A stretch of 57,923 bases of DNA, counting the filler, from Acidimicrobiia bacterium (GTDB lineage: Bacteria; Actinomycetota; Acidimicrobiia; Spongiisociales; UBA11373): the NCBI GenBank assembly GCA_040878325.1. It is 3 parts of 3 records of this genome, joined end to end, with 100 filler letters (N's around TTAATTAATTAA, not from the genome) between each part and the next. Parts side by side here need not be neighbours in the genome. Positions count along the whole stretch, not along the records: positions 1 to 21,683 come from JBBDMM010000005.1; positions 21,784 to 51,189 come from JBBDMM010000006.1; 1 more part is not named here. One strand, 5' to 3'. Positions 19,301-40,300 of this stretch are shown here, in pieces. Position 1 is the first letter of the stretch; each line of letters starts with the position of its first letter. The position numbers were made by a program.

Positions 19301-22300
19301 TTGCGCATTGCGCATCGCGGGACTGCGCATCCCGCCTCGGGAGAGTCCCGAGAGTCTCACGACCGGGGCAGCAGTCCCTGGCTCCGATACCACTCCACCG
19401 TGCGTGCCAGCCACTCCTCCGGGGGGGTGTAGCGGAGGCCCAGGTCCCTTTCGGCCTTGCTGCCGTCGAAGACGTGGGCGTGGTGAACCTCGCGGGCCAT
19501 CGCCCGGCACACGGGTGGTTTCTTGCCCACGGCTCGCCACAGCACCTCGGTGACGGTCGCTGCGGCGGTCAGGGTCCATGCGGGGAGGTAGCGGATCCGT
19601 TGATCCACTCCTGCGACCCGGCCGAGCACCTCCACCGCCTCCTCGATGGTGGGCGACCAGCCGTTCACCAGGTACCGCTCACCGGGGACCCCGACCTGTT
19701 CAGCCAGCAGGTGCGCCGACACCGCATCGTCGACGAACACGAGCGGAAGGCGGGTGCGGACCGCCCAACGGAGCTTCCCGTTGAGGAACCCGATGAAGAG
19801 CCGGGCGGTCCCGTGGGTGCGACCCGGCCCCTGCACCGACGACGGGTTGACCGCCACCAGATCGATTCCCATGCTGGCGGCATCGGAAAACGCCACCTGT
19901 TCGGCCTCGCGCTTGGATCGGGCGTAGGCAGATTGGTGATGCCCCTGGTGCTCGGTGGCCTCGGTACCGACCGTCCCGCGTTCCTCTCCGATCGTGGCGG
20001 CCGAGGAGGTGTGCACGATGCGACCCACCCCCTCTCGCCCCGCCGCGGCGATCACCGTCCGGGTACCGGCGACATTGACCTCGAGGCGTTTCGGATCACA
20101 CATCGCCACCTCACCGGCGGTGTGATAGAGCGTGCTGCACCCACGCAGGCTTCGGGCCCAATCGCCCGGTTTCAGTAGATCGCCGCGTACTGCCTCCGCC
20201 CCGGCCGCGACCACGACCCCCTCCCCCTCGTCGGAGCGGACCAGAGCGCGCACATGCCGTCCGTCGGCGACGAGCCGGCGCAACACCGCCCCGCCGACGA
20301 AGCCCGAGCCACCGGTGATGAAAACGTCAGGCACTGACGCGGTTGGACCGCAGCACCCGGGCGAAGCGACTGAAGTACTCGAAACCCGACATGACCGTCA
20401 CCGCCACCGCGGCGAGCATTGCCCACTCATCCGGATGGAGCCCGCCGTAAGTCTCGGGCACCCGCAGCAGGGCGAGGAAGATCGCCATGAACTGGACGTT
20501 GACCTTGATCTTTCCCCAGATCGATGGAGGGACGGAGACCCCATCCATCGCGGCCACCCCGCGAAGGCCCGAGACCGCGATCTCCCGCCCGATGATGATG
20601 AACGCCGCCCACGCCCAGGCACGATCGGCGGCTACCAGGCCACACAACGCACCGGTCACCATCAGCTTGTCGGCGATCGAGTCGAGGAAGCCGCCAAGGG
20701 TGGTGGTGATCTTCCATCGGCGTGCCAGGTACCCGTCGAGGAAATCGGTGAGCGAAGCCACCGCGATCAGCACCGCGGCGATTCCGAACGCATGATCCAC
20801 CGAGTCGCGGGCGAGGATGATCCCAAGAATCCCCGGAACCAGGAGAATCCGCAGATACGCCAGGCGGTCGGGAACCGAAATGTGTGACCTCCGGGTGCGT
20901 GCGAGCGCAATGGTAGAGCCAAGAGCCAAGACGCCAAGAGCCAAGACGCGGCTCGGCCCGCCTTAAGGCGGGCCGAGCCTATGAGTGTCTTGAGTCTTGA
21001 ATCTTGATTCTCGACTCTTGACTCTCTTTACGCTGCGAAGCGGTCGCGGAAAGTGCGCACCTCGTCGTGGGCCGCCTTGACCTCGGCGGCCTGCCGGGCG
21101 ACAACGGCGTTCGCGGCCTCTCCCAGCTCGGCACTGGTGAGTGCCTTCTCGAATTCGGCGACGGCGTGATCCTCGCCGGACTCTGCGGCCGACAGCACCG
21201 CCGAAGGGTCATCCCCGGTCAGGGCGTCGGCGAGGGTGAGCCATCCACGATGGAGCGCACCCGCCATCGAGCCGGCTTCCTTGATCTCGACGCCTTCGCG
21301 GGCAGCCAGGTCGCGGAGTTCCTGCGAGAAGCGCGCCCGCTCCTGCGAGAATTCGCGCATCCGGCCGGCGATATCGGTTCGCCCATCCTTCTCCAGGCGT
21401 TCCGCCGCCTTCTCGAAGCCCTTCTTGCCGTCTTCGAGGGTCTCGATCAGGTCCTCGAGCACGTTGACGTTCTCAGATTGCATGTGGTGCGACCTCCGGT
21501 AGTGAACCTGGGGTCTATCCGATCCGCCGCGGGACGAAACCGGGAGTCAAGAATCAAGAATCAAGACGCCCGTTCGCTCGGCCGCCGAAGCGTCTGCGGG
21601 GATTCGCCCTTCGCCCTTCGCCTTTCGCTGACTCTTGACTCTTGACTCTTGACTCTTGACTCTTGACTCTTGACTCTTGACTCNNNNNNNNNNNNNNNNN
21701 NNNNNNNNNNNNNNNNNNNNNNNNNNNTTAATTAATTAANNNNNNNNNNNNNNNNNNNNNNNNNNNNNNNNNNNNNNNNNNNNATCAGCCAGGCGGTCGC
21801 CCTTACCGGCACCGGTGACGCCGCCGCCTTCCGCCGCCGGCACGGCCTGAGCGGCCCGATCGTCCTCTTCGTGGGCCGCAAGATCGAATCGAAGGGATAC
21901 CAGGTAATGCTGGCGGCTGCCAGCCGCCTGGCCGAGACGCGCCCGGACGTGACGGTCTGCCTCCTGGGTTCGCGGGCCGGCGAGGGGCGCGGCGCGAGAT
22001 CCGGCAACGTGCTCGACCTCGACGACGTTACCGAGTCGGAGAAGAACGACGCATTCGCAGCGGCGGCGCTCTTCTGCCTCCCGAGCGTTGCCGATGTATA
22101 CCCTTTAACCGTGGTGGAGGCCCGACTCAGCGGCGTTCCCATCGTCGTCGGGCCCTTCCCCGGCGCCGAGGAGGTGGTGCGCCACCAGGTCGACGGCCTC
22201 ATCGTGCCGGCCAACCACGAGGCCGTTGCCGCCGCCGTTGACTCGTTGCTCGCCGATCCAGCGGCTGCCCGCGCCATGGCGGCGGCGGGACTCGCCCGGG

Positions 22301-37300: not shown

Positions 37301-40300
37301 GTGGCGTCAGGCACCCGGGACCAGGTTGCCGCGACAGCCGACTCGCCCACCGGACAGTTCTTGCGCGGAACGCTCTCGGTCGAATCGGGGCGTTCGGGGA
37401 AGAGGAGGCCGCCGGATGCCTGGCTCACCGTCGAGGGTGCCAACCTTCATAACCTCGCCGACATCACCGTCCCGATCCCCATTGGGCGTCTCACCTGCGT
37501 CACCGGGGTCAGCGGCAGCGGCAAGACCTCGTTGACAAGTGGGTCGATCGGGCCGGCCGTCTCCGCTGCGATCCGCGACGGACAAGTGGGACCTGGGCCC
37601 TACCGAGGTATCACGGGCTGGGAGTCAATGACGCGAGTCGCGACCGTTACCCAACAGTCGATCGGCCGATCCGCCCGTTCGACCCCGGCGACATACATCG
37701 GAATATTCGACGAAGTACGAAAGACTTTCGCGAAGCTGCCCGAGGCCCGCGCCCGGCGCTACTCGACCGCTCAGTTCAGCTTCAACACCGACCGGGGAGG
37801 CCGATGCGGCCGCTGTCTCGGCACAGGGTCGATCTGGGTCCAGATGCACTTTCTCGCCGACGTCGCGGTCGACTGCCCGACTTGCGAAGGGCGGCGGTTC
37901 GCCCCCGAAACGCTCGAAATCCGTTACGGCGGCCTGAACATCGCCGATGTCCTCGACCTGGAGGTGGGCCAGGCCCTAGACCACTTTGCCGAACATACGC
38001 GAATCGTGGGGCCTTTGCAGGTCCTCGCCGACGTCGGCCTCGGCTACCTGCGCCTCGGTCAGGAAACGTCCACCCTCAGTGGCGGCGAGGCCCAGCGGCT
38101 GAAACTCGCCCGAGAGCTGACCCAGCCTGGCGAAGGGCGCACACTGTACCTGATCGACGAGCCGACCACAGGTCTCCACGCCTTCGACATCCAACTCCTC
38201 GTGGACGTCCTCGAGAGGCTCGTCGATCGGGGCGACACGGTCGTCGCCGTGGAACACGACATCGACTTCATCGCCACGGCGGACTGGATCGTTGACCTCG
38301 GACCCGGTGGCGGGCGCGCTGGCGGACAGCTCGTCGCGTCCGGGCCCCCGGCGGAGCTCGCCAATCATCCAGCCAGTGCGCTGGCGCCCTACCTGGCGAG
38401 GCGCCTTGCTGTCGCAGAGCGCTGACGTTCGCCCTTCCGTGCCCCGGCAGCGACCAAGGCCTCAACGCCAGCGAGTCCTTCAAGCAGTCGACGTCACCGA
38501 ACCTTCGCGGCGCATAGAGAACCCCGCCGCCCCTCACACCAACAACTGACACGTCCCCCGCTTGAGGAACCGCCCATCCCCCTTGGTCCCGTGATACGCC
38601 CCGTCTGAGATCAGGACCTTGCCGCGGGACATCACCAGGGTGATGTCGCCTTGGACCTTCTTGCCTTCGTAGGCGTTGTAGTCGACGTCCATGTGGCTCG
38701 ACTTCACCGACATGGTGTGCATGGCGTTGGGGTCGAAGATCACGATGTCGGCGTCGGTGCCGATGGCGATGGTTCCCTTCTGGGGGAACAGGCCGAACAT
38801 CTTCGCCGGCGCCGTTGCGGTCACCTCGACGAAGCGGTTGAGGTTGAGCCGGCCTTCGCCGACCGCCCCGTGGTAGATCATCCGCATCCGGTCCTCCACT
38901 CCAGGGAGGCCGTTGGGGATCTTGGTGAAGTCGCCCTCGCCCAACCGCTTCTGGGTTCCCAAGCGGGGATGGTCGTTCATGCAGAACGGGCAGTGGTCGG
39001 TCGAGACCACCTGCAGGTCGTTGGTGGCGAGGTACTTCCACAGCGCATCCTGGTGGCCCTGCTCGCGGTCGCGCACCGGGGTCGAGCACACGTACTTGGC
39101 GCCGCCGAAACCGGGCTCGCGCAGGTTGTCCCAGTCCAGGAACAGGTACTGGGGGCAGGTTTCCCCGAACGCGTTCTGGCCCCGGTTGCGGGCCATCGCC
39201 ACCTCGGCCACCGCCTGCTTCGCCGACATGTGCACCACATACACCGGGCATCCGGCCAACTCGGCGTAGGCGAGCACCCGGTGGGTAGCCTCGGCCTCGG
39301 TTACTGGGGGGCGGGTGATGGCGTGGTGGATCGGGTCGGTTTCCCCCCGCTGCAGCGCCTGCTCGCGCAGCACGTCGATGACCATGCCGTTCTCGGCGTG
39401 CATCATGATCGTCCCGCCGTTCTCGGCAGCCTTCTGCATCGCCCGGAACACCTTGCCGTCGTCCGAGTAGAGGACCCCCGGGTAGGCGGTGAACAGTTTG
39501 AAGGAGGTCACCCCCTCCCCCATGAGGATGTCCATCTCCTTCAGCGCCTGGTCGGTGACATCGCCGACGATCATGTGGAACCCGTAGTCGATGGCGCAGT
39601 TGCCCGCGGCCTTCTCCATCCACGCCTCGTAACCGTCCATCACCTGCTCGCCGACAACCTGGACGGCGAAGTCGATGATCGTGGTGGTGCCGCCCCAGGC
39701 GGCAGCGCGGGTACCCGACTCGAAGTCGTCGGAGGCGAGAGTGCCTCCGAAGGGCAACTCCATGTGGGTGTGAACATCAATCCCGCCGGGGAACAGGTAC
39801 TTGCCTTTGGCGTCGATCTCCTTGTCGGCCTTCCACCCGTGGGACTTGGGAGCGGCGATGCCGACGATCTTCTCGCCGTCGATCAGGACGTCGGCGGACA
39901 TGGTTTCGGTGGCGGTGATCACTGTTCCGTTGCGGATGAGGGTGGTGGGCATTGCGGGCTCCTCTTGTGGCGGTGTTTCTGCAATGCGCGATGCGCGATG
40001 CGCAACGCGTTTCAAGGTCTGCTTGGGAATCTACTCAGGACCATCGACCTGGGGAGTGGCGACGCCCGTTCAGCCAGGAAGCGGCTGATCCTCGAAGTAG
40101 AGCTAGGCGCGTTTCTAGGACTCCGTGGGAATCCACTCAATTGGGCCTGAGGCATTCGCGATGCGCGGCGCGTTTCTAGGTCTCTGTGGGTATCCACTCA
40201 ATCGCGCCGGAGGCATCCGCGATGCGCGATGCGCGGCGCGTTCCAACGTCTGCTTGGTGATCGACCCGGTCGGTTTGACGGGGTTCCCTCGCTGCGCTGA

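What a model noticed while it worked through the whole genome (the two positions that open the first line are those of the whole stretch)
21784..38425. Pyrrolamide-type biosynthetic cluster with a reductase-amidase-terminated NRPS, the first in Acidimicrobiia
A 25-kb cluster carries counterparts of all eight aminopyrrole-precursor genes of congocidine-type pathways, including the Man15/Cgc13 marker (g601). It differs by a two-gene modular NRPS (T-C-A-T; C-A-T-reductase-amidase), a 2OG-Fe oxygenase, a PPTase and a second UvrA-like gene, predicting a new pyrrolamide class outside Actinomycetia and Bacillus.
Evidence so far: Gene content and domains. The 20 GTDB relatives of g601 are all Streptomyces/Kitasatospora clusters sharing the sugar dehydrogenase, epimerase, GT and aminotransferase in 20 of 20, nucleotidyltransferase and ADH in 18, aldehyde dehydrogenase in 10, the UvrA-like gene in 9; none shows the reductase or amidase domain or the oxygenase within 10 kb. 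The gene set matches Table 1 of PMC12983305. Absent from 5 of 5 closest relatives. The finding spans contig positions 90681 to 115653; this window holds only 99012 to 115653 of it.
(Added by a program. Inside this text positions count along the whole contig: they may not be those of the stretch shown here. "Call 12" and the like, gene names such as g00115 and contig names such as C1 are that model's own, and its searches are not shown. The text may have been shortened before it was handed on; [...] marks where a part breaks off. The agent that wrote the report below was given it as the finding of a first reader that could run no searches.)

Follow-up and report, generated by a model that had tools for sequence, protein, structure and literature searches.

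The report
Pyrrolamide antibiotic-type cluster, unusual assembly line
A sediment bacterium carries, on a foreign DNA island, a complete gene set for a relative of the DNA-binding antibiotic netropsin, with an assembly line that probably adds beta-alanine and ornithine and cuts the product off as a reactive aldehyde; related lines turn up in other bacteria, one of them a cultured strain.

Summary
Real. Contig C6 (90,681-115,653) holds an intact 14-gene pyrrolamide cluster on a 30-kb island missing from relatives. All eight aminopyrrole genes align directly to cgc-type and man genes (29-54% identity), and the stand-alone ligase is a Cgc22 orthologue. The NRPS codes (IDTVVSLGDK, DIGEVGSIDK) predict acetamidopyrrole-beta-Ala-Orn, released by an intact reductase, probably as an aldehyde or cyclic imine. 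The oxygenase (HrmJ/GlbB family) probably hydroxylates the diamino acid. The amidase keeps its catalytic triad and probably stands in for the absent Cgc14 deacetylase; ClbL-like acyl transfer is the main rival.

The uniqueness claims fail. A second Acidimicrobiia genome has a Man15 cluster. Man15 clusters also occur in Chloroflexota and Acidobacteriota. Amidases flank 17 of 75 GTDB clusters and UvrA-like genes 18 of 75. A probable sister cluster splits NRPS and amidase, and two other proteins share the reductase-amidase fusion. Cultured Dictyobacter kobayashii encodes a longer line with the same beta-Ala-Orn-reductase end.

The product is unverified and no RNA data exist. The scan had not found this on other DNA. 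New variant of a known kind; interest 0.6.

The parts
21784..22395 (+). 3' part of the GT4-like gene (Cgc10/Man18 homologue, GDP-sugar hydrolase); the gene starts at C6:98559, outside the window. Upstream and also outside the window: ALDH C6:90681-92096 (minus), AMP ligase 92822-94297, DegT aminotransferase 94294-95451, PF10014 oxygenase 95482-96282, sugar dehydrogenase 96279-97601, epimerase 97594-98562
   Evidence: Pfam; 29% to the man locus and 35% to a cgc-type locus
22392..23114 (+). Sugar-phosphate nucleotidyltransferase (Cgc11/Man17 homologue)
   Evidence: PF00483 E 2e-30; 36% to man locus L017
23111..24880 (+). GH-like dehydratase, Man15/Cgc13 homologue, 589 aa from the ATG at 23111
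   Evidence: 38% to S. ambofaciens SAM23877_6669, E 3e-98; 63% to ENA protein P0005; tree
24877..25569 (+). 4'-phosphopantetheinyl transferase; no second copy found with this query in the genome
   Evidence: PF01648 E 2e-14; genome-wide tblastn
25566..26600 (+). Zn alcohol dehydrogenase (Cgc17/Man14 homologue)
   Evidence: PF08240 and PF00107; 40-48% to Man15 loci
26597..29938 (+). NRPS1, T0-C-A-T. Carrier serines S35 and S1050; C motif variant DHASCDG with the catalytic His kept; A code IDTVVSLGDK, read as beta-alanine
   Evidence: the beta-Ala reference code is recalled and was not found
29935..35661 (+). NRPS2, C-A-T-reductase-amidase, 1908 aa. C motif HHIVCDG; A code DIGEVGSIDK, read as ornithine; carrier serine S1042
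   Evidence: Orn code DVGEIGSIDK in PMC3992020
33277..34224 (+). Thioester reductase domain with TGATGLVG and Y1256-xxx-K1260
   Evidence: PF07993 E 2e-31; motifs; TIGR01746 155 bits, below its cut-off of 213
34300..35598 (+). Amidase-signature domain with K1509, S1584 and S1607 in place
   Evidence: PF01425 E 3e-60; motifs; nearest solved relatives are urethanase UMG-SP3 (2e-52) and ClbL (5e-48)
35591..38425 (+). UvrA-like protein without the UvrB-interaction domain (DrrC/UvrA2 type; probable self-resistance to a DNA-binding product)
   Evidence: PF17755 but no PF17760; the housekeeping uvrA on C12 (41% identical) has PF17760 at E 3e-40
38534..40015 (-). Dihydropyrimidinase: host backbone gene marking the right edge of the island, not part of the cluster
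   Evidence: TIGR02033 above cut-off; matches in 19 of 31 genomes, G000 included; synteny

Best explanation
A horizontally acquired pyrrolamide cluster that makes a short pyrrole-beta-alanine-ornithine peptide. Step 1 (homology shown here; chemistry from PMC12983305): GlcNAc-1-P is GDP-activated, oxidised, decarboxylated, aminated, hydrolysed and dehydrated to the pyrrole, then oxidised by ADH and ALDH to 4-acetamidopyrrole-2-carboxylate. Step 2 (orthology shown; role inferred): the Cgc22-type ligase adenylates the acid and loads it on T0. Step 3 (inferred from codes): NRPS1 adds beta-alanine and NRPS2 adds ornithine, possibly C4-hydroxylated first by the oxygenase. Step 4 (motifs shown; outcome inferred): the reductase releases an ornithinal whose delta-amine can close a six-membered cyclic imine, or an amino alcohol after a second reduction. 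Step 5 (inferred): the fused amidase removes or exchanges the N-acetyl group of the pyrrole, in place of Cgc14. The UvrA2-type protein protects the host's DNA.
For: All eight precursor genes align directly to cgc-type genes, and seven to man genes. The ligase's best genome-wide hit lies in the Man15 cluster in 4 of 5 genomes tested; in the fifth the marker is 12.7 kb from a contig end and the hit is on another contig. The A2 code matches the published Orn code at 8 of 10 places with two I/V swaps, and the same code recurs in P0070, P0071 and D. kobayashii. D. kobayashii's Man15 cluster ends in A(beta-Ala-like)-T-C-A(Orn)-T-R, and its two beta-Ala-like domains were the best hits to A1 among 5 genomes. 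Manlipyrrolamides carry a dehydro-beta-alanine directly after the pyrrole. No Cgc14 orthologue was found in 12 of 12 amidase-bearing genomes, G000 included, and 0 of 6 Cgc14-bearing genomes hold the actinomycete cluster amidase. Within 10 kb, 34 of 92 loci have Cgc14, 12 have an amidase and 0 have both. The nearest relatives of the G000 amidase include those of Man15 loci L093 and L095 (support 96). The oxygenase keeps H163, D165, H216 and R232; its nearest structures are HrmJ, BelL and IDO; GlbB, a lysine 4-hydroxylase, is in the same family (PMC9951290). Island: a same-genus genome has 4.2 kb between the flanks where G000 has 30 kb, and four island windows rank 2-7 of 212 for odd tetranucleotide use.
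Against: No compound, enzyme assay or expression data. The beta-Ala code is recalled; two searches did not find it in print. The Cgc14/amidase exclusion follows the Man15 clades: 28 other genomes also lack Cgc14 and 19 of those 28 show no close cluster-type amidase either, so it is weak evidence for substitution. With one pyrrole and no upstream module, nothing obvious needs a free pyrrole amine. Close amidases are common as stand-alone genes (20 of 169 Ktedonobacteria genomes). C1 has a variant motif and the reductase scores below the TIGR01746 cut-off. No exporter or regulator gene lies in the cluster.
Confidence: 0.5

Rival explanations
1. Same precursor and modules, but the amidase is a ClbL-like acyl transferase. 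It takes a pyrrole or pyrrole-beta-Ala acyl group from a carrier and puts it on an amine: the ornithine delta-amine (a branched, myxochelin-like bis-amide) or a freed pyrrole amine (oligomer). The product would carry two or more pyrroles.
For: ClbL is among the closest solved relatives (E 5e-48) while aryl acylamidase is far (1e-15); ClbL's transacylase role is recalled. None of 14 amidase-bearing locus pieces gave a tblastn hit to the G000 C domains, so those clusters need another amide-forming enzyme. The reductase-amidase fusion recurs with an Orn-type A domain in P0071 and P0051, which ties the amidase to the ornithine end. MxcG is among the best NCBIfam matches to NRPS2, far below its cut-off.
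Against: Urethanases, which are hydrolases, score slightly higher than ClbL. Divergent C domains do occur in two amidase-bearing clusters (L078; L123). The contexts of P0071 and P0051 were not seen.
Confidence: 0.25
2. The pyrrolamide assignment holds but the extension units differ: A2 takes Lys, Arg or Dab, the oxygenase desaturates beta-Ala to 3-aminoacrylate as in manlipyrrolamides, or the reductase goes on to the alcohol. The amidase may be a prodrug-activating or detoxifying hydrolase of the finished product.
For: Specificity codes are predictions. The family's solved members include a cyclopropanase and hydroxylases of 6-nitronorleucine, a lysine-length substrate, and GlbB acts on lysine. 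Manlipyrrolamides show that the beta-Ala unit can be desaturated.
Against: The Orn-type code is conserved across four lineages. Characterised PF10014 enzymes act on free alpha-amino acids, which beta-Ala is not.
Confidence: 0.18
3. The cluster is a decaying or silent passenger, or a binning or assembly artefact, and makes nothing in this host.
For: Found in one MAG and one run; no regulator or exporter; the site carries changing cargo (a restriction module here, an A-T-TE gene in G158).
Against: All 14 frames are open with coupled junctions and the catalytic motifs checked are intact. Both flanks are syntenic with relatives on a 317-kb contig. A Logan contig bridges the UvrA-like gene and the core dihydropyrimidinase with no differences, at depth 46 against 46-53 on the core side. 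G000 is 98.9% complete with 0.02% contamination.
Confidence: 0.07

Closest known systems
Congocidine (cgc), distamycin (dst/pya) and anthelvencin clusters of Streptomyces (PMC4047045, part of the results read; PMC8627960, passages with Table 3; PMC12983305, Table 1)
   Same: Cgc3, 8, 9, 10, 11, 12, 13, 17 and Cgc22 homologues; a carrier loaded in trans by a stand-alone ligase.
   Different: Colinear C-A-T modules instead of free C and T domains; reductive release; no Cgc14, and no gene annotated like Cgc15, Cgc4-6, Cgc1 or the Cgc20/21 transporter; amidase and PF10014 oxygenase added.
Manlipyrrolamide (man) cluster of Bacillus manliponensis (PMC12983305: introduction and results read, supplement not readable)
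   Same: Man14-Man20 homologues at 29-40%; predicted beta-alanine-type unit right after the pyrrole; UvrA-like gene in the cluster.
   Different: 25 kb and 14 genes against 60.9 kb and 59 stand-alone genes; ALDH instead of the xanthine-dehydrogenase-like complex; ornithine-reductase end instead of phenethylamide; man has a Cgc14-like gene.
Uncharacterised Man15 cluster of Dictyobacter kobayashii Uno11 (NZ_BIFS01000002.1, about 124-168 kb)
   Same: All precursor genes, the stand-alone ligase, and a modular NRPS ending C-A(beta-Ala-like)-T-C-A(Orn)-T-R.
   Different: Longer line with an acyl starter and three modules lacking the A core; Cgc14-type amidohydrolase instead of the amidase; no oxygenase or UvrA-like hit in the stretches read; the record has frameshifts.
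Pyrrolobenzodiazepine NRPSs (A-PCP plus C-A-PCP-RE; PMC9570651, passages)
   Same: Two-gene NRPS with an aryl-acid starter and reductive release that can give an imine; minor-groove target.
   Different: Sugar-derived aminopyrrole starter, not anthranilate; an extra module; any imine would form with the ornithine side chain. Works like, not a member.
Myxochelin MxcE/F/G (logic recalled; NF038078 hit)
   Same: Stand-alone aryl-acid ligase, carrier, and C-A(diamino acid)-T-R.
   Different: 469 bits against a cut-off of 2300; no catechol genes; added beta-Ala module and amidase.
ClbL (PDB 8ES6) and UMG-SP urethanases (PDB 9FVF)
   Same: Same amidase-signature subfamily with the Lys-Ser-Ser triad.
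   Different: Fused to an NRPS reductase here; substrate untested.

Membership tests
Pyrrolamide clusters (cgc/man type) | Man15/Cgc13 GH-like dehydratase marker | tested here: met
   38% to the S. ambofaciens protein over 586 columns, E 3e-98; 32% to B. manliponensis
Pyrrolamide clusters (cgc/man type) | Nucleotidyltransferase, sugar dehydrogenase, epimerase, aminotransferase, GT-like hydrolase, ADH and an aldehyde-oxidising enzyme, clustered | tested here: met
Pyrrolamide clusters (cgc/man type) | Cgc22-type ligase plus a carrier for the pyrrole acid | tested here: met
   best genome-wide hit inside the Man15 cluster in 4 of 5 genomes; T0 with GGDSL
Pyrrolamide clusters (cgc/man type) | Makes a pyrrole-2-carboxamide product | not testable with these tools
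   no chemistry possible
Congocidine/distamycin subtype | Cgc14 deacetylase, free-standing C domains, amidine-tail genes | tested here: not met
   no Cgc14 hit in the genome; C domains only inside the two NRPSs; no cluster gene annotated like the amidine genes
Reductase-terminated NRPS | T followed by a Rossmann domain with GxxGxxG and YxxxK | tested here: met
   TIGR01746 below cut-off
Amidase-signature family | Lys-cisSer-Ser triad and GGSSGG motif | tested here: met
   K1509, S1584, S1607; triad assignment by recalled family numbering
ClbL-type transacylase | Transfers acyl groups from a carrier thioester to an amine | not testable with these tools
   sequence similarity only
PF10014 free-amino-acid oxygenases (IDO, GlbB, HrmJ, BelL) | HxD...H iron triad and 2OG-binding Arg; fold | tested here: met
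   substrate and reaction not tested
DrrC/UvrA2 self-resistance proteins | UvrA-like protein lacking the UvrB-interaction domain, beside a housekeeping uvrA elsewhere | tested here: met
   the family definition is recalled and resistance was not tested
Pyrrolobenzodiazepine clusters | Anthranilate-activating first module and dihydropyrrole genes | tested here: not met
   no such genes among the 14 annotated

The most novel reading that the evidence does not exclude
This cluster, its probable ENA sister and D. kobayashii define a natural family of pyrrole/beta-alanine polyamides that end in a reductively made ornithine imine: a minor-groove binder with a built-in electrophile, joining netropsin-like recognition to PBD-like alkylation. 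In G000 the fused amidase would build the oligomer or a branch by acyl transfer, a chain-growth step not described for NRPS termini in the papers searched.
Probability: 0.2. Interest if true: 0.85.

Novelty: new variant of a known kind. Interest (0 to 1): 0.6.

Why it matters
Pyrrolamides are few and known from Streptomyces and one Bacillus. PMC12983305 predicts unknown classes from Man15 mining but names none in the text read. This cluster gives a compact 14-gene line with a concrete predicted product, a C-A-T-reductase-amidase terminus that one literature search did not find, and a way to ask how clusters without Cgc14 process the acetylated pyrrole. The comparison also points to a cultured strain, D. 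kobayashii, whose line predicts a natural pyrrole/beta-alanine polyamide, so the idea can be tested without the uncultured host.

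Tried and rejected
Uniqueness to this genome or class: rejected. Assembly or binning artefact: rejected; the run laid may be the MAG's own source, so it is not independent, and no long contig was listed over 21784-35838. Oxygenase as Cgc7: rejected; it had no tblastn hit in 92 loci including cgc-type ones, and the gene before the sugar dehydrogenase in L045 has no Pfam family. The neighbouring amidohydrolase as Cgc14: rejected, it is a core dihydropyrimidinase. Nitro-cyclopropane chemistry like HrmI/HrmJ: no heme-oxygenase-like partner among the cluster genes. Strict Cgc14/amidase exclusion as proof of replacement: weakened by clade structure. Amidases of Man15 clusters as one clade: not so, at least three lineages (FastTree only, 11 cluster amidases kept, L067 and L071 dropped as cut off). 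GH tree: IQ-TREE did not finish; FastTree used with L088, L096, L100 and L103 dropped as short; G000's branch is long and its place unsure. No RNA holder listed. No plasmid match for the reductase-amidase part. 0 of 400 sampled Chloroflexota besides D. kobayashii hold the marker, so it is rare there. Papers: beta-Ala codes not found; no paper held three of four amidase/reductase/NRPS terms; PDB-code search gave nothing relevant; pyrronamycin search seen as listing only; PMC6497799 has no hit for pyrrol, congocidine, netropsin or reductase. The locus of the ENA sister proteins could not be fetched. No complex prediction was run.

Full report
Setting. The window joins three contig pieces; 21784-51189 is C6:99012-128417 of G000, a 2.2-Mb MAG, 98.9% complete and 0.02% contaminated. 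The one run that holds the NRPS DNA is a sediment metagenome.

Anatomy. C6:90,681-115,653 holds 14 genes: a divergent aldehyde dehydrogenase, then on the + strand AMP ligase, DegT aminotransferase, PF10014 oxygenase, sugar dehydrogenase, epimerase, GT4, nucleotidyltransferase, GH-like protein, PPTase, ADH, NRPS1 (T-C-A-T), NRPS2 (C-A-T-reductase-amidase) and a UvrA-like gene. Ten of 12 junctions overlap by 4-8 nt. No exporter, regulator or methyltransferase lies among them. These are the only condensation domains found in the genome.

It is an island in a native backbone. In same-genus G158 the flanking genes lie 4.2 kb apart; in G000 they lie 30 kb apart. The insert also carries a GHKL-ATPase gene, a DNA methyltransferase and an APH-like gene. 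Four 10-kb island windows rank 2, 3, 4 and 7 of 212 for tetranucleotide deviation. The marker was not found in 40 of 40 family genomes or 400 of 400 order genomes searched; many are incomplete MAGs. A Logan contig spans the UvrA-like/dihydropyrimidinase junction with no differences, and a Logan protein is identical to NRPS2. Both probably come from the MAG's own sample, so they check the assembly but are not a second occurrence.

Pyrrolamide membership. The GH-like protein is 38% identical to S. ambofaciens SAM23877_6669, which I take as Cgc13 because it groups with cgc-type loci. Against the man locus the seven shared genes score 29-40%; against cgc-type L047 all eight score 35-54%. Of 75 GTDB Man15 loci, 70 show the aminotransferase, 69 each the dehydrogenase, epimerase and GT, 64 each the ADH and nucleotidyltransferase, and 34 an ALDH within 10 kb. 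The ligase's best hit in whole genomes lies inside the Man15 cluster in S. netropsis, G440, D. kobayashii and B. manliponensis; in the fifth genome the cluster is cut by a contig end. Its place fits cgc22, listed as the assembly acyl-CoA synthase in PMC8627960. The chemistry of the precursor steps is from PMC12983305.

Assembly line. An alignment of 15 A domains gives IDTVVSLGDK for A1 and DIGEVGSIDK for A2. A2 matches the ornithine code DVGEIGSIDK of PMC3992020 at 8 of 10 places. A1 has the conserved Asp shifted by one place, the mark of beta-alanine domains; that rule is recalled, and two searches did not find it. Carrier serines, the C2 motif, the reductase motifs and the amidase triad are intact; C1 reads DHASCDG. 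The simplest product is acetamidopyrrole-CO-beta-Ala-Orn released as an aldehyde. The delta-amine can then close a six-membered imine, much as reductase release gives the imine of pyrrolobenzodiazepines (PMC9570651). This step is inference. The UvrA-like protein lacks the UvrB-interaction domain that the housekeeping copy has, which fits a DNA-directed product.

Oxygenase. The iron triad is intact. The nearest structures are HrmJ, BelL and IDO. HrmJ enzymes attack C4 of 6-nitronorleucine (PMC13692166), and GlbB of the same family hydroxylates lysine at C4 (PMC9951290). C4 hydroxylation of the diamino acid is the best guess. It had no hit in 92 other loci, but close homologues exist at 64% and 59%.

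Amidase. Its nearest solved relatives are urethanases and ClbL. Within the fetched flanks, 34 of 92 Man15 loci have a Cgc14-type amidohydrolase, 12 an amidase, none both and 46 neither. Whole-genome searches of 45 genomes found Cgc14 in 0 of 12 amidase-bearing genomes, 5 of 5 Bacillota and 0 of 28 others. Nine of those 28 hold a close orthologue of the actinomycete cluster amidase, seven of them 12-21 kb from the marker; 0 of 6 Cgc14-bearing genomes do. So the amidase is a recurring cluster part, at 17 of 75 GTDB loci, recruited at least three times. The pattern follows the Man15 clades and 19 genomes show neither enzyme, so it does not prove replacement. None of 14 amidase-bearing locus pieces hit the G000 C domains, though two such clusters have divergent ones; this keeps acyl transfer alive as a rival. 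Close stand-alone amidases occur in 20 of 169 Ktedonobacteria genomes (one of the 20 is marked unpublished).

Not unique. G373 carries a different Man15 cluster with fatty-acid-synthase-like genes, a stand-alone reductase and an amidase; it was the only full-length match in 400 same-class genomes (three genomes in that tally are marked unpublished). GTDB holds Man15 loci in Ktedonobacteria, Acidobacteriota, Solirubrobacterales, Brevibacillus and Paenibacillus. Four ENA proteins share a longest-contig length of 4,239,454 bp: GH 63%, C-A-T-R NRPS 53% with code DIGEVGSVDK, stand-alone amidase 59% and oxygenase 59%. I read this as a sister cluster with NRPS and amidase split; the DNA was not seen, so adjacency is inferred. 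The fused form recurs in P0071 (C-A-T-R-amidase, code DVGEIGSVDK) and P0051 (A-T-R-amidase), contexts unknown. The search behind this listed only the best 150 of 40,673 hits.

Dictyobacter kobayashii. Its Man15 cluster has all precursor genes, Cgc14, the ligase and a long NRPS: acyl starter, two amino-acid modules, then C-(A subdomain)-T, C-A(VDAVMSIADK)-T, two more C-(A subdomain)-T, C-A(VDAVMSIADK)-T and C-A(DVGEVGSIDK)-T-R. If the three modules without an A core are loaded with pyrrole in trans, the product is acyl-X-X-Py-beta-Py-Py-beta-Orn. G000's line equals its last three units. The record has frameshifts, so the genes need resequencing.

Literature seen. PMC12983305: abstract, introduction and results; supplement not readable, and it or Figure 8 may list such clusters. 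PMC4047045: one part of four. PMC8627960, PMC3992020, PMC9951290, PMC13336071, PMC13692166, PMC9570651 and PMC6497799: passages only. Thirteen papers hold both 'pyrrolamide' and 'congocidine' (listing); none is about this architecture by title. ClbL's transacylase role, myxochelin logic and the DrrC definition are recalled. Earlier notes of the scan held no pyrrolamide finding and no look-alike of the marker.

Verdict. The detailed product and amidase role are a prediction (about 0.5). The taxonomic 'first' and several claimed differences fail. It is a new variant of a known kind with a concrete, testable product and a cultured test strain. Interest 0.6.

Noticed in passing
L107, L108, L015 (D. 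kobayashii Uno11, NZ_BIFS01000002.1, about 123,900-168,000): Man15 cluster with a long NRPS holding three modules that lack the A core, two beta-Ala-like modules and a terminal Orn-T-reductase; predicts a pyrrole/beta-alanine polyamide. Also a lantibiotic-dehydratase-like gene and a split penicillin amidase downstream. The record has frameshifts.
   Followed up: partly
L013 and L014 (G373:C212): Second Acidimicrobiia Man15 cluster, of another design: ketosynthase, ketoreductases, acyltransferase, MaoC dehydratase, stand-alone thioester reductase, AMP ligase, UbiA prenyltransferase, PEP-utilising enzyme and amidase. L037 (Solirubrobacterales) has the nearest amidase.
   Followed up: partly
L122, L019, L121 (Ktedonosporobacter MAG): Man15 cluster with T-C-A-T, C-A-T and C-A-T-TE NRPSs, extra sugar genes and Cgc14: a second case of an N-terminal carrier in a modular line.
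   Followed up: partly
L034, L061, L088, L053, L054, L057, L078, L041/L152: Actinomycete Man15 clusters with an amidase, free carrier, ligase and often acyl-CoA dehydrogenase or ATP-grasp genes but no canonical C domain. M. gifhornensis is related to proximicin producers (recalled; link untested).
   Followed up: partly
L074, L075, L097 (Acidobacteriota): Man15 with the sugar genes but no ADH, ligase or NRPS within 10 kb; L075 is followed by caspase and CHAT-domain genes.
   Followed up: no
L001:5800-10465 (C6:85,800-90,465): GHKL-ATPase gene, DNA methyltransferase and APH-like gene share the island with the cluster; GC about 0.61.
   Followed up: no
L130:13320-17354 (G158): The same-genus genome holds an A-T-thioesterase gene and a flavin monooxygenase at the island site, so the site takes changing biosynthetic cargo.
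   Followed up: partly
window 38534-42291: Core dihydropyrimidinase and a class III aminotransferase next to the cluster; pyrimidine breakdown could supply beta-alanine (inference).
   Followed up: partly
window 43287-47859: Nitrous oxide reductase and a NosD-domain gene follow the cluster.
   Followed up: no
L126 (B. manliponensis, 18-20 kb from man15): The man cluster has a Cgc14-like amidohydrolase and a UvrA-like gene.
   Followed up: yes
window 51290-57923 (contig C7 start): Low-GC stretch (0.58-0.60), the most deviant 10-kb window of the genome by tetranucleotides; a different contig, not part of this finding.
   Followed up: no
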